Positions 10,990-53,392 of a DNA stretch of 64,000 nt are shown in pieces (the stretch's first letter is position 1; each line of letters begins with the position of its first letter). The position numbers and the translations under genes are program-made. This DNA is from Eledone cirrhosa (Eukaryota). The notes under the pieces are model-generated. The model was given only the letters and a program-made list of their open reading frames with translations. It searched no databases and was not told where the DNA came from. The stretch is taken from contig OZ024745.1 of NCBI GenBank assembly GCA_964016885.1, positions 114,452,001 through 114,516,000 on the forward strand. Reading direction: 5' to 3'.

Positions 10990-11835
10990 GAAATTTCTGG
11001 GGTCGGTTAGAATTTTCGGGTTTTAACATCAATGATTCGGATCTCATCTAATGTCCAGTCAAGTAGTCCAAATGTTGGACCATATTTTTCTTTTTCCCTG
11101 ATCACTCGTTCCTTGTTACAAATACCACCATAGGATATATTTTCACCTATACGCAAATATCTGTAGCAGTCCTCGTCAGATATTGGTGAAACAGTCAGAC
11201 CATTGATAAATGTATTGCTAGATTGGCTTGTAGTTTTTCCTCGCTTTACAATCACATAGGAAGATTTAGCCTCGCCAAACTCCATTCCTATAACTTTCGA
11301 GAACGTCGTAACCAGATCAAGGTTTTTCTTTATACCATTTATATTCTTAGCATAATGTTTCAGGTCGTCTACAGAGAAGCTATGTGTTAGGTTAGTGCCT
11401 TCCGACCTCCTGTGAATCAATTACATATCCTTTATATTTCCTCAACATAAAAGACAAACGGTTTATTGTCAGTATAAATAGCATCACAGTGAGACTGTCT
11501 CCTTGAAATAAACCCTTGCGACATTCTATTTTATCAGTGATAATATAGTCTCCCCTCTCTAATTTCGGGATGGTGGCCCAGGAAAAAAGTTATGTTCTCT
11601 ATGGCTCTGATAATGGTATCTAGGACTATAACGAGGGATCCCAAGCATCCAAGAGTAGGAAACACAATCGAATGCTTTCTTGTAGTCCAGCCAGATTGTA
11701 ACTAAGTTCCTCCTATGTCACCGCACCTCTTACATCGCAGTTTTGTTAATTAAGAGTTGCTTAGCACCCCAACTCCTTTTTTTCGAAGCTGCTAGCTCAT
11801 CTGTGATAATTTTGTTATTGCCACAGTGATCTTCG
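10990..11835 (-). pseudogene. R4/Dong-clade LINE reverse transcriptase remnant
   Basis: Frameshifted motifs QLLINK, TIWLDYKKAFDCV, KGLFQGDSL, SVDDLKHYAKN, FSKVIGMEFGEAKS, YRYL. Confidence 0.85.
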
Positions 11836-29795: not shown

Positions 29796-29848
29796 GAGAT
29801 TCTACAGGACTAGAACTGTTTCATTCATTAGAAATCATCAGGAATCTC
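29796..29848 (-). ncRNA. Type I hammerhead ribozyme motif (GUA), mirror copy
   Basis: Exact reverse complement of 29850-29902. Confidence 0.8.
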
Positions 29849-29849
29849 T

Positions 29850-29902
29850 GAGATTCCTGATGATTTCTAATGAATGAAACAGTTCTAGTCCTGTAGAATC
29901 TC
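29850..29902 (+). ncRNA. Type I hammerhead ribozyme motif (GUA)
   Basis: gagattc-CTGATGA-tttctaatgaat-GAAA-cag-ttctagtc-ctg-TA-gaatctc; stem I 7 bp, stem III 4 bp, stem II 3 bp above a U.U pair. Confidence 0.8.
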
Positions 29903-30060
29903 ATCTATATTAAAACGGTTATACTCTGCTATGTATTGAGTACCTTACTTACTGTGGTTACCTCCGATTCAACCCGGAATAACGTATATATATATATATA
30001 TATATACGTGGAGAAATATATAAAGGAGAACAAACCGTTAAAACATGTTTATTTAAAATA

Positions 30061-37825: not shown

Positions 37826-37879
37826 AAAAAATTCAGGTCCTCGACGGCTGAGCTCCGGCCGTTTCGATAGCTAGCTCCG

Positions 37880-37976
<97 letters not shown>

Positions 37977-38039
37977 TATGAAAAAATTCAGGTCCTCGAC
38001 GGCTGAGCTCCGGCCATTTCGATAGCTAGCTCCGAACTA
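37826..38039 (-). mobile_element. Two family E1 single arms in a local duplication with microsatellites
   Basis: aaaaattcaggtcctcgacggctgagctccggcc.tttcgatagctagctccgaacta at 37826-37884 and 37980-38039. Confidence 0.75.
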
Positions 38040-38104: not shown

Positions 38105-38531
38105 CTAGCGCATATACAAATAGATGTGTGTTTTGGTAGTTTGGGAAGAAAATATATAATTATTGGGCGGAGGGGGAGCATGCCCCCCCCCCCCCCCCCA
38201 ATTCCACCATTCCTGAACTGATTGAAATCACGCCGCACACTTTCACCATCTGTCATCTCCCTTTTGGCCGGCTGTGCCTCTCCTGCGGGACATAATGACT
38301 CTTTTGAGTCCCTGAGTTTGAGACGGCTGTGTAAGGTTTGACTCTTCCTTAAGCGGCTTGGGCCTGGTGGATGAGTTCGAATGTAGTTATTTGGATACGT
38401 TTGCCCGAGTTCGTGAATGACTTTAGTTTCATCTGTACGTATTTACGTTCAAGTTAAGGCAATTGTCAGTCTTGTTTACATATATCTATATCTATATAAA
38501 TATATGTACATGCATACATACATGTGTGTGT

Positions 38532-38578
<47 letters not shown>

Positions 38579-38639
38579 AAGGCGTATATATATATATATA
38601 TGGAAGGCGTATGTATATATATATATATGAATGTATATA

Positions 38640-38887
38640 TAGTGTATTTTGCAATATACTGTATGCTTAATTAAAGGCATTTCGAAGGCCTTACGCTATT
38701 GTTTTAGAGTAGTGACAGTCTCACTTACTTTAAATTTTCAGCAAACAGGGGAGATAAAGCTGACAGAGCTCTGTTTCGTACTGATTGGTACTTATCAAAG
38801 CCAAGTACTCCACCTGTTTGCTGAAAATCATGAATGTTTGATTCTTATAGAATTCTAGTAATAATCTATAAGAATCAAACATTCATA
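38640..38887 (-). mobile_element. PLE-type pseudo-LTR family X with fold-back 5' end
   Basis: Hairpin atgaatgtttgattcttataga/tctataagaatcaaacattcat (38830-38887), HHR, tail ending in TA repeat. Confidence 0.7.
38758..38802 (-). ncRNA. Type I hammerhead, U3-A8 core variant (GUC) with extended stem I
   Basis: Minus strand ggct-TTGATAA-gtaccaatcagtac-GAAA-cagagctctg-TC-agct; stem I continues past an internal loop into attttcagcaaacagg/cctgtttgctgaaaat. Confidence 0.8.
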
Positions 38888-39036
38888 ATTTGCATATCGA
38901 GTAAGTTAATCGGCCGGGTGCACCGAAAACGCCCGGCCGATTAACTCACTCGATATGCAAATTAGGCTGCTCAGCCGTTAATATGCATAAGGAAAGTATA
39001 TACTTTCAGACGTTCAATCATCTGGCAGGAAGGTAT

Positions 39037-39079
39037 ACGGTGCTGACGATAGCTAATAAGCTTGAAACTAGTACATCGT
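39037..39079 (+). ncRNA. Type I minimal hammerhead (GUA), copy 1
   Basis: acggtg-CTGACGA-tagctaataagctt-GAAA-ctag-TA-catcgt. Confidence 0.8.
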
Positions 39080-39344
39080 TCCTTTGTCAGTGTTGAACAA
39101 AAGGGCAACGATGGTTGCTAAACACTGTACGGCTTAATTCGGAATGTTTGTTTACAACTTATGTACATACTTATATTTAAGTAACAGCCGTACTAAGAGT
39201 GAGAAATGAATTTCGTTTCATTTTTTCCATTTATCGTTTTCGGTGCGCCCGGCCGATTAACCCACTCGATATGCAAATTGGGATACTCAGCCGTTAATAT
39301 GCATAAGGTAAGTATATACGTTCAACAGTCTGGTAGGAAGGAAT

Positions 39345-39387
39345 ACGTTGCTGACGATAGCTAATAAGCTTGAAACTAGTACAGCGT
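39345..39387 (+). ncRNA. Type I minimal hammerhead (GUA), copy 2
   Basis: acgttg-CTGACGA-tagctaataagctt-GAAA-ctag-TA-cagcgt. Confidence 0.8.
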
Positions 39388-39686
39388 TCCTTTGTCAGTG
39401 TTGAACAAACGAGCAACGATGGTTGCTAGACACTACGGCTTAATACGGAATGTTTGTTTACAAACACAACGAGCATTATAATAAATGTTCGGTGAATCCA
39501 TACGTACATATATATATATGTGTGCATGTATGTATATATATATACATACTACTGTACGTCTGTATACATATATGTATGTACGTGTACATACTTATATTTA
39601 AGTAACAGCCGTACTAAGAGTGGGAAATGAAATTTCGTTTCATTTTTTCCGTTTATATATATATATATATATATATATAAATGCAT

Positions 39687-39792: not shown

Positions 39793-39798
<6 letters not shown>

Positions 39799-40122
39799 CG
39801 CATGGCTTGGTGGTTAGAGCGTCAGGCTTACAATCGTGATGTTGTGAGTTCGATTCTCGGACCGGGCTTTGTGTTGTGTTCTTGAGCAAGACACTTTATT
39901 TCACGTTGCTCCAGTTCACTCATCTGTAGAAATGTATTGTGACGTCACTGGTGCCAAGCTGTATCAGCCTTTGCCTTTCACTTGGACAACATCGTTGGTT
40001 TGGAAAGGGAAGACAAGTATACTGATCTTCCACAAACAACCTTGCCAGGACTTGTGCCTCGGAGGGGAACTGTCTAGGTGCAAATCCCATGGTCATTCGT
40101 GACTGAAGGGGTTCTTTATCTT
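39793..40122 (+). mobile_element. SINE group B, full length
   Basis: A-box tggcttggtgg, B-box gagttcgattc, cttgagcaagacactttatttcac; tail related to 45295-45505 (-). Confidence 0.85.
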
Positions 40123-40144
40123 ATATATATACATATATATAAAA

Positions 40145-40323
40145 AACGAAGGAGGTGTGGTAAGGAACCAGATGGACCATAACGCACTCAATACTTAGGG
40201 TAGTAGAGTGGGTAATAGGAAAATGTTAGACCTCGACGGCAGAGCTCAAGCCGATTCGGCGGCTATTTCAGAAATAGTCGTCGAAACGGCTTGAGCTCTG
40301 CCGTCGGGGTCTAGCATTTTCCT
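40145..40323 (-). mobile_element. Family E1 fold-back element
   Basis: E1 tail (reverse) plus palindrome 40217-40323. Confidence 0.8.
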
Positions 40324-42329
40324 ATATATATATATATAAATATATATATATGAAGTCCTGTGTCTGAAGTAGAACGAAACATACGTAGAGTTGAGGAGAT
40401 ATAAGATTTTGGTCACTGATTCTGTGCTCCAGTTTTAATGATTTCATTTCACTCACACTTTATAAAAGGTATGAGCATCGCATGCTCACATTTACTTCTT
40501 CTTTACAAATATTAAGTATTGTATCCCTATAAGGAATCAAACATTTTTTGAACCAATGAAGTTAATTTCGTTAAGAACTACCCAACTTAATATTTTTCTA
40601 AAAATTAGCAAATTGACTACAGTTGGATCTTTAAGAATGACTATGCTGGTAGATTGTCTGAATTAATGAATTTAGATTCGTGTCCTTGAGTTCAAATCGA
40701 GTCAACTGCGTCTTTTTCCTTTTACTTAATCCATGCTTTATTATTTCAAACAAAACAATAGAAACAATACGAAAGCAAGTGAAAATCTTTCTCGGTTATG
40801 TTACTCGTCTTTGATCGATTATTATGTAAACAGTTCGATTATAACTTTAATTGTGAAACAAAATTCTATTTCGCAGAAAATTTAAACCTCATTATGTTCT
40901 CGTGAAAGGTTTCAGCCTGCAATTGAATATCATGTTTAAATTAAGAAAATAGCTTCAGGATAATCTTATTGCCAGGTATTAAATTTGGATAAACCAGAAA
41001 TCATGATTCACTGATGAGCATCAAATTACAAGGAAGGTGTGCTGATCAATGAATTTGTGAGGGAATTATGTTAAAACGTGCACTAAGAATTACCTCCAAG
41101 GGTTTTTCTTTTTTTATTTTTTATTCAATGAATCGAAAATTGATTTTACAATTTCACTGATAAAAAAAAATATAGGATTAGAGGCAAATTCTTTGTTGGG
41201 TGTTGTCGTGGGCCAAAACAATGAACGAATAGATATAATAAATTAAAATAGAATAAAGCAAAATATTCAATTATTCGATTCGCAGGAAAAGATTTTTTCT
41301 GTTAATGATAATTTAGACTTTTACTTTCGTCATGAATCCCCACCCCCCCTCTCCCCATCAATTCCATTTGTTTTTGTCATAAAATGCAAATAAAAGTTTC
41401 TATTATAGTAAAAGTAGTCTTTCATAATAAAATTTCTAAAGAATTTACATGAATATTTTAAATGACAAAAACACCCTTTTGCTTCTAGTTCTAGTATAAG
41501 ATAGCTCCCCATTTTGTTTTATAAGACTGAATGAAAATAATAGGCTCTATTTTGATAAAATACCCCATAGAAAAAGAAAGAAAGTGGTATCAAATGTAAT
41601 CTAATAAATTAAATCATTTTTGTTAAAAAAATCCATATTCAAAGAAAAACAAAATCATTTCCGATTTTTATTTTAAAATTTAATTTAAATCTGCTTTCAA
41701 CAAAAAATATCACTTAATCACTGAAATGTTTCATTGACAAATTATTTTCATACTTCATTCCACTTTCATTTCCCTATTGTTTGACCTTTTCTGGCAGTGC
41801 AGTATAAAGTTGAACGACACAACTCCATAGTAGGCTTCTCAAGATATTTATTCTGATACATGGTATAAAGTGGTTGAGAACACATACACAGATAAGATGA
41901 CTGCTTCAGTCAGCATCAGCAATCTACCGCTCCTCCTATTATAACAAAAACGATTATATATTCACCTAATTTTAAAGCAGTAGAGTAAGATTTTAAAATT
42001 TGACTGCTAATTGTAGCCGGTTTAGCGACCATGGGGAAAAGGCTCCTTCGTTAGATTATGAAGGAACATAACCAACGTAATAAAAACTAGAAACTCAGTA
42101 CATTAACATCATATGCACACGACTGAATCAAAACTCATCATTATATAACTGAATATGAAAATAACTTTGAAAAAAGGTAGAAAGACAGAAAACTGGTAAA
42201 TGTTTGTATCCAACACAGACCACCAAACAAACAATGAACTATTTATAGAGAGTAGTTAACAACCACAACAACAACAATGTTAATTTTAAATAACATATTC
42301 ACTATCCAACGCCCTTATTAGAAATCTCT

Positions 42330-52850: not shown

Positions 52851-52853
<3 letters not shown>

Positions 52854-53387
52854 AGTTAAGAACTCAGAGTAGTCTCTTACAATTAAATAGCTCTAAGAAA
52901 GAAGCTTTACCGAGCCGTACAATATAATTGAATAAACAAGAGAGATGAACAGTAATATAAACATACATGTGTTCGAATCGTAAGGACTAAAATTTGCTAG
53001 GGTGGAAAAATAATAACTACAGCAATATAGTTTTTTATCTTTAACTTTAAATATTAAATTAAGAAAAATTAAGAAAAATAACAGACCTATATCGGGCAAA
53101 AATGCCTGGTAACAACTAGACAGTGTTGGAGACTGTTTCGCAACGACTTATTAAGTGAAGTCTTCACGTTTCTCTGCTCCTCAGTAGTTGTTAAAAATAT
53201 TAGAAAATGAATTGTGTACGATATGAATTATCGCACGTGTCATTTGGAACCCAGCTTATCTCGAAATTCCCTGCCGCTAAAAATAGCAGCCTGGCTATAT
53301 TGCTGTAGTTTTCACCCTAGCAAATTTTAGTCCTTACGATTCGAACACATGTATGTTTATATTAGTGTTCATCTCTCTTGTTTATTC

Positions 53388-53392
<5 letters not shown>
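52851..53392 (-). mobile_element. PLE-type element in (TA)n with ~100-bp inverted 5' arm
   Basis: 52921-53030 is the reverse complement of 53294-53393; an HHR lies between the arms; both ends abut (TA)n. Confidence 0.8.
53110..53193 (-). ncRNA. Type I hammerhead ribozyme motif (GUC) with long stem II
   Basis: Minus strand taacaacta-CTGAGGA-gca...gactt-cacttaat-aagtc-gt-tgc-GAAA-cagt-ctccaac-actg-TC-tagttgtta; perfect 9-bp stem I and 5-bp stem III. Confidence 0.85.

What the first reader, a model, noticed from the sequence alone, without database searches (positions are those of the whole stretch)
38640..39657. Ribozymes in both polarities: one antisense HHR head-to-head with two tandem sense HHRs that would release a 308-nt RNA
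Seen: three consecutive long hairpins (38734-38965); a minus-strand HHR (38758-38802); two plus-strand HHRs with predicted cuts after 39073 and 39381, releasing 39074-39381 (308 nt). The two sense copies differ at a paired stem I position, G.U in one (acggtg/catcgt) and U.G in the other (acgttg/cagcgt), so pairing is kept. Stem III is the palindrome ACUAGU, the form known to favour dimeric cleavage. Known: metazoan non-LTR retrozymes are tandem HHR repeats of a few hundred nt that yield circular RNAs. Inference: this could be a retrozyme-like circRNA source. The opposite-polarity HHR makes it look viroid-like, though two PLE families joined head-to-head is the simpler reading.
Basis: partly seen in the sequence, partly recalled or inferred. 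Interest (0 to 1): 0.75.

Follow-up and report, generated by a model that had tools for sequence, protein, structure and literature searches.

The report
Two ribozyme retroelements pasted head-to-head
The three self-cutting-RNA motifs are real but belong to two unrelated, many-copy jumping repeats, likely pasted back-to-back into one DNA break by a Penelope-type enzyme copying more than one RNA; this is not a viroid-like unit, and the 308-base spacing is a local splice of a repeat normally about 420 bases long.

Summary
All three hammerheads, the cut sites (39073, 39381; minus strand 38762) and the G·U/U·G swap are confirmed. They belong to two unrelated non-coding repeat families: X (unit about 320 nt, 449 ribozyme matches) and Y (unit about 420 nt, 18,683 matches). 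Both fit metazoan non-LTR retrozymes. The 308-nt spacing is unique to this locus and joins two Y subfamilies. The antisense ribozyme lies outside it, so the ambisense-viroid idea fails. Both-strand copies are routine within each family, because insertions are two-armed with both 3' ends facing outward into (TA)n and usually one tailed end, the Penelope footprint. This scan found that footprint before on other DNA. The added result is that mixed arms recur. Five of 162 other X loci join X directly to Y, each at a different breakpoint (at most 0.2 expected), and X or Y arms also join 3' arms of four GIY-YIG retroelement families. The two ends of one break can therefore likely be primed on different RNAs. 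Cleavage, expression and circles are untested, and no sequencing-run contig bridged this junction.

The parts
38620..38866 (-). Left arm: 5'-truncated copy of family X (unit about 320 nt); its 3' end faces left into (TA)n at X end site 1 (no tail)
   Evidence: 1.3% from the family majority
38758..38802 (-). Type I hammerhead of family X, U3-A8 core, palindromic stem III, predicted cut after 38762
38733..38829 (-). Hairpin 1: extended stem I that encloses the X hammerhead; a family-wide feature
   Evidence: z -7.1; paired changes in the relative in L172
38867..38886 (+). 20-nt fold-back copy of the X arm; makes hairpin 2 (38830-38886); formed at the insertion junction
   Evidence: other X copies continue into the next unit here
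38887..38931 (-). 45-nt inverted piece of family Y (unit positions 74-118); makes hairpin 3 (38886-38965); the X-Y junction is at 38886/38887
   Evidence: junction unique in the genome
38932..39157 (+). Partial Y copy (unit positions about 85-302), stem I subfamily G·U
   Evidence: 100% to L063 over 228 nt
39037..39079 (+). Y hammerhead 1, predicted cut after 39073
39158..39161 (+). 4 extra bases at the jump from Y position 302 to Y position 1; about 113 nt of the unit are skipped, which gives the 308-nt spacing
39162..39582 (+). One full 421-nt Y unit, stem I subfamily U·G
   Evidence: (D11, spacing 421)
39345..39387 (+). Y hammerhead 2, predicted cut after 39381
39583..39656 (+). Start of the next Y unit, ending at Y end site 2 (61-nt tail); its 3' end faces right into (TA)n

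Best explanation
The stretch is a two-armed insertion in a (TA)n tract whose left arm is family X and whose right arm is family Y, two unrelated hammerhead-bearing repeats, and it was likely made in one event by a Penelope-type reverse transcriptase/endonuclease that primed the two DNA ends on different RNAs. Shown: family membership, unit sizes, outward-facing 3' ends at fixed sites, short fold-backs at the centre, and recurrence of mixed arms. Inferred: the enzyme cuts AT-rich DNA on both strands; one end is extended on Y RNA from its tail site and jumps to a second Y subfamily, which gives the 308 spacing; the other end is extended on X RNA from its upstream site; fold-back and microhomology join the two cDNAs. 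The families would cycle as retrozymes (multimeric transcript, hammerhead cleavage, possibly circles), but this hybrid locus is likely a dead-end product.
For: Families: 18,683 Y and 449 X ribozyme matches, controls 0; Y units 418-437 nt in 27 of 30 spacings; X units 311-326 nt in 17 of 19; longest ATG frames 53 and 62 aa. Footprint: outward end pairs are one tailed plus one untailed in 41 of 50 X pairs and 23 of 24 Y pairs and in 27 of 30 X pairs of a second sample; the tails are 41 and 61 nt. This matches the PLE inverted copy, one-sided tail and (TA)n targeting in PMC8557442, and the both-strand extension from two internal start sites in PMC11167929. Mixed arms: direct X-Y junctions without an intervening (TA)n at L134, L135, L139, L151 and L246, 5 of 162 X loci with the window excluded; 0.04-0.2 expected. 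All have outer ends facing away from each other. L151 mirrors the window's order of arms and short inversions. Four of the six X-Y hybrids, window included, have exactly one tailed end. X arms also join 3' arms of GIY-YIG elements (L098/L281, L162, L221, L225, L256) and a Y arm joins the 3' end of a 938-aa RT plus GIY-YIG element (L074). All three templates here are young, with best matches of 98-100%.
Against: No target-site duplication can be read in (TA)n, and no empty allele was seen, so a single event is inferred. Two of the six X-Y hybrids (L139, L246) have no tailed end, and three X-PLE hybrids (L221, L225, L256) pair the X tail with the longer PLE end, so the one-tail rule is not general in hybrids. 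Four of four canonical cases could arise by chance about 1 time in 16. Same-family arms share variants far more than unrelated loci do (X 10.6% vs 1.1%; Y 35% vs 11%), so most insertions use one template or near-identical templates and mixed arms are a minority route. The chance model assumes uniform placement. X and Y show no clear sequence similarity to the PLE termini examined in 50 GIY-YIG loci, so the mobilising family is not pinned down.
Confidence: 0.75

Rival explanations
1. X and Y inserted at different times into the same AT-rich spot, and a deletion or the second insertion removed the DNA between their 5' ends.
For: Both families target (TA)n and often sit near each other: 11 of 77 X loci had Y within about 1.2 kb and 8 of 60 in a second sample. 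The window is the only 1 of 34 multi-ribozyme Y loci that mixes the two main subfamilies, which a nested Y insertion could also explain.
Against: Independent neighbours meet tail-to-tail across a (TA)n tract (L087, L117, L239, L272). The hybrids meet at their inner ends with no TA tract, neither element continues on the far side of the other, and the centre carries the same short fold-backs as same-family two-armed insertions.
Confidence: 0.16
2. The stretch is an integrated viroid-like ambisense RNA with ribozymes in both polarities and a 308-nt monomer.
For: Three intact cores in two polarities, and long hairpins.
Against: The antisense ribozyme is outside the 308-nt piece. The antisense strands of the Y unit and of the 308-nt piece have no core. 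Both junctions are unique and the hybrid breakpoints differ at every locus. Two of the three hairpins are junction fold-backs. The 308-nt circle folds worse than a Y unit (z -2.3 vs -6.7) and would re-form stem I with a U·U mismatch.
Confidence: 0.02
3. The X-Y junction is an assembly or library chimera.
For: Fold-back hairpins are a known source of chimeric reads (recalled).
Against: Five other loci show the same architecture with canonical element ends, and each arm differs from other copies like a genuine insertion.
Confidence: 0.05

Closest known systems
Metazoan non-LTR retrozymes (Cervera and de la Pena 2020, PMC7229834, parts 2-4 of 6 read; Li, Clavereau and Pollet 2026, bioRxiv 10.64898/2026.07.22.740005, parts 1-3 of 5 read)
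   Same: Non-coding tandem units of a few hundred nt, one type I hammerhead per unit, GC below 50%, structured predicted circles. The Y ribozyme has a 1-bp stem III with a palindromic loop like axolotl Amex1 and a U·U at the base of stem II like Amex2.
   Different: Circular RNA and cleavage are not shown here. The sections read do not describe two-armed insertions or arms from two families. X and Y show no clear similarity to the PLE termini tested.
EN+ Penelope-like element insertions (Craig et al. 2021, PMC8557442, passages; Frangieh et al. 2024, PMC11167929, parts 1-2 of 4 read)
   Same: Inverted 5'-truncated arm, a tail often at one end only, (TA)n targets, two internal start sites, extension of both strands in vitro.
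   Different: No ORF. The Y tail is 61 nt against the 30-40 bp reported. The passages read describe inverted arms of the same element, not of another family.
PLE hammerhead variants (Cervera and de la Pena 2014, PMC4209133, parts 1-2 of 4 read)
   Same: U3-A8 core variant, as in the Schistosoma Cercyon element, and pairs of hammerheads 100-700 bp apart on opposite strands, both already reported.
   Different: The X ribozyme has a full 5-bp stem III and a long stem I, so it is not a minimal hammerhead.
LINE-1 twin-priming chimeras (PMC13174262, passages)
   Same: Two different RNAs joined in opposite orientation in one insertion, attributed to priming from both ends of a break.
   Different: A different enzyme class. 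There is no poly(A) or readable target-site duplication here, and both partners are ribozyme retroelements that start at fixed internal sites.
Hammerhead viroids and viroid-like circular RNAs (recalled; search listings only)
   Same: Hammerheads on both strands of one DNA stretch.
   Different: The two polarities are not part of one unit-length RNA and come from unrelated genomic repeats.

Membership tests
Metazoan non-LTR retrozyme | Type I hammerhead in each repeat unit | tested here: met
Metazoan non-LTR retrozyme | Tandem units of about 150-450 nt, many copies | tested here: met
   Y 418-437 nt, X 311-326 nt; 18,683 and 449 core matches
Metazoan non-LTR retrozyme | Non-coding, GC below 50% | tested here: met
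   longest ATG frames 53 and 62 aa; GC 0.38 and 0.33
Metazoan non-LTR retrozyme | Signs of selection on the ribozyme fold | tested here: met
   Y stem I position paired in 108 of 116 copies, though this reflects only two or three events; X stem II variants with changes on both sides; C3-G8 in the X relative in L172 against U3-A8 in X
Metazoan non-LTR retrozyme | Self-cleavage in vitro | not testable with these tools
   Folding the active form costs about 7 kcal/mol for the Y ribozymes and 2.6 for X in local context
Metazoan non-LTR retrozyme | Expressed as linear and circular monomer RNA | not testable with these tools
Penelope-type insertion footprint | Inverted 5' arm with outward-facing 3' ends | tested here: met
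   51 of 77 X loci carry both strands
Penelope-type insertion footprint | Two fixed end sites, tail usually at one end | tested here: met
   41 of 50, 23 of 24 and 27 of 30 pairs
Penelope-type insertion footprint | AT-rich or (TA)n target | tested here: met
   flanks printed
Autonomous PLE or solo pseudo-LTR | RT plus GIY-YIG ORF, or identity to a PLE terminal repeat | tested here: not met
   no ORF in the units; in 50 GIY-YIG loci X and Y matched only separate retrozyme insertions; the PLE sample is partial
Viroid-like ambisense RNA | Ribozymes of both polarities within one unit-length RNA | tested here: not met
Viroid-like ambisense RNA | The same unit recurs | tested here: not met
   hybrid breakpoints all differ

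The most novel reading that the evidence does not exclude
Penelope enzymes prime the two ends of one double-strand break on two separately loaded RNAs, which can be different retrozyme families or an autonomous element. The few per cent of mixed-arm insertions then form a genome-wide record of which RNAs share which enzyme, and give direct physical evidence that retrozymes ride on Penelope machinery.
Probability: 0.5. Interest if true: 0.65.

Novelty: new variant of a known kind. Interest (0 to 1): 0.45.

Why it matters
That PLEs mobilise animal retrozymes is proposed from co-occurrence and terminal-repeat similarity (PMC7229834; bioRxiv 10.64898/2026.07.22.740005), and how PLEs make inverted arms is called undefined (PMC8557442). 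Insertions with one retrozyme arm and one arm from another retrozyme or a GIY-YIG element would tie these RNAs to the same integration event and show that a second, separate template can be used. That can be tested in the existing in vitro PLE system. It also warns that hammerheads in both polarities in animal DNA are an expected insertion footprint and no sign of a viroid-like replicon.

Tried and rejected
Rfam at gathering thresholds: no hit. X against Y at word size 7: best E = 0.61, unrelated. I first read the 45 nt at 38887-38931 as a segment shared by X and Y; it is an inverted Y piece. Target-site duplication: unreadable in (TA)n. Sequencing runs: no RNA holder listed. Contigs of runs X1-X3 (one sample) and RAD reads of X16 gave no record bridging 38867-38886, although X1 holds the left flank 38187-38471 without a difference; a hole proves nothing, so the junction is neither confirmed nor refuted by reads. 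A composite X+Y query returned no second copy of the composite among 40 scored candidates. Search for the autonomous partner: no clear sequence match of X or Y to the termini in 50 GIY-YIG loci, and mixed arms involve four families, so none is singled out. L116, L123, L124, L117, L087, L239, L244 and L272 were dropped from the hybrid count because microsatellite or other DNA separates X and Y. Four overlapping or duplicated loci were removed before the 162 count; still counts one duplicated pair. The first X ribozyme regex was too narrow and was corrected. Paper searches for mixed-arm PLE or retrozyme insertions and for cephalopod retrozymes listed no such description by title or abstract start; only six papers were opened and no supplements were read.

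Full report
Observation. The sequence and a descriptor scan confirm the three type I hammerheads. The scan gave 7 hits in the window and none in 10 shuffles. The plus-strand cores at 39043 and 39351 have predicted cuts after 39073 and 39381. The minus-strand core at 38798 is the U3-A8 variant, with a cut after 38762; that variant was reported in Schistosoma PLEs (PMC4209133). The three hairpins are far more stable than shuffles. Rfam finds nothing at gathering thresholds.

Two families. The window lies in a 3.0-Gb genome; earlier notes of this scan call it octopus-like, which I did not test. The sense part belongs to family Y, with 18,683 ribozyme matches at up to one mismatch and cut-to-cut spacing of 418-437 nt in 27 of 30 cases, the other three being larger. 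The antisense part belongs to family X, with 449 ribozyme matches, 3,523 matches to a 3' segment and spacing of 311-326 nt in 17 of 19 cases. X and Y are unrelated in sequence. Both are non-coding and fold as structured circles in silico (z -5.4 and -6.7). They meet the sequence criteria of metazoan non-LTR retrozymes (PMC7229834). Cleavage and circular RNA are untested; in the 2026 preprint only 1 of 9 predicted dimers cleaved.

The 308-nt piece. Copy 1 (38932-39157) stops at unit position 302 and is joined through 4 extra bases to a full 421-nt unit (39162-39582). That junction occurs once in the genome. The G·U and U·G stem I forms mark two Y subfamilies: 62 U·G, 37 G·U and 8 A-U of 116 copies. 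The window is the only 1 of 34 multi-ribozyme Y loci with both main forms. A released 308-nt RNA would be a subfamily hybrid that lacks the long AT-rich rod of the unit, folds less well (z -2.3) and re-forms stem I with U·U. It does not contain the antisense ribozyme.

Both polarities are routine. X lies on both strands in 51 of 77 loci, with intact cores on both strands in 15 of 98. Opposite-strand pairs 100-700 bp apart were already noted in PMC4209133. Insertions are two-armed with the 3' ends facing out into (TA)n. Each family has two fixed end sites, 41 nt apart in X and 61 nt apart in Y, and outward pairs are one of each in 41 of 50 X pairs and 23 of 24 Y pairs and 27 of 30 X pairs in a second sample. 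This is the PLE footprint of PMC8557442 and fits the in vitro behaviour of a PLE protein that cuts AT-rich DNA and extends both strands from two internal sites (PMC11167929). Hairpin 1 is the family-wide stem I of X. Hairpins 2 and 3 are fold-backs at the central junction. Earlier notes of this scan describe the same two-armed footprint in other families; I saw them.

Mixed arms recur. The exact X-Y junction is unique. Among 162 distinct X loci (27 chosen by score, 135 mostly by position of pattern matches), five join X directly to Y with no (TA)n between: L134, L135, L139, L151 and L246. The 95% interval is 1-7%, and uniform placement predicts 0.04-0.2. Breakpoints differ each time and the outer ends face away from each other. 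End types are X1+Y2 (window), X2+Y1 (L134, L151), Y2+X1 (L135), and two cases with no tailed end (L139, L246). X arms also join 3' arms of elements that carry a GIY-YIG domain: 1.8 kb of one family ending at its terminus (L098/L281), and two further families (L162, L225, L256; L221). A Y arm joins the last 108 nt of a family with a 938-aa RT plus GIY-YIG frame (L074). RT was confirmed by Pfam only for that family. In three X-PLE hybrids both ends are the longer form, so the one-tail rule does not hold throughout.

Mechanism. Likely sequence of events: a PLE protein cuts (TA)n on both strands; the right end is extended on Y RNA from its tail site, runs through a full unit and jumps to a second Y subfamily; the left end is extended on X RNA from its upstream site; the cDNA ends fold back and switch templates at short matches until they anneal. 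An X cDNA and a Y cDNA both had to be made at this site if it was one event. Same-family arms share variants much more than unrelated loci do, which agrees with earlier notes that one template often serves both arms; mixed arms are the minority route. LINE-1 chimeras in opposite orientation are explained the same way (PMC13174262).

Limits. There is no empty allele and no readable duplication, so sequential insertion keeps about 16%. Run contigs did not bridge the junction. The mobilising PLE is not identified. Paper searches listed no description of mixed-family arms; supplements were not read and may bear on this.

Verdict. The locus is a hybrid insertion of two new retrozyme families, of interest mainly as one of a recurring class of mixed-arm insertions. 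Interest 0.45.

Noticed in passing
window 29797-29907: Fold-back of a third hammerhead family with intact cores on both strands (29841 minus, 29857 plus); the same family appears in L206 and L215.
   Followed up: partly
window 52851-53391: Two-armed element between (TA)n tracts with a minus-strand hammerhead at 53184 that has a 38-nt stem II region.
   Followed up: no
window 40145-40325, 37828-37884, 37983-38039: Fragments and a 55-bp fold-back of another repeat that, by eye, carries the 3' half of a hammerhead; related pieces lie beside L008.
   Followed up: no
L172 2438-2871: A relative of X at 73-81% identity with a canonical C3-G8 core and paired changes in the long stem I, inserted as two arms beside a PLE end.
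   Followed up: partly
L201, L202, L210, L212; L171, L195, L219: Two GIY-YIG element families also carry U3-A8 hammerheads; L201 has an intact 938-aa RT plus GIY-YIG frame between repeats 4,979 nt apart.
   Followed up: partly
L004, L070, L152; L094, L111; L097; L132: Further direct junctions of X or Y arms to two unidentified repeats and to PLE pieces; the ends were not fully checked.
   Followed up: partly
window 38811-39238, run X1: Single contigs join X to Y at other places (38860 to 39238, 38861 to 38978, 38811 to 38895), with only 21-31 letters on the short side; a weak hint of more hybrids.
   Followed up: no
X loci: Same-strand tandem X units differ more from each other (7.9%) than copies from different loci (5.3%), unlike Y (3.4% vs 7.3%); unexplained, possibly an alignment effect or driven by a few old arrays.
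   Followed up: no
window 39795-40120: Repeat that looks by eye like a tRNA-derived SINE, just right of the insertion.
   Followed up: no
window 11007-11420 (minus): A 137-aa frame that by eye resembles a LINE reverse-transcriptase fragment (resemblance recalled).
   Followed up: no
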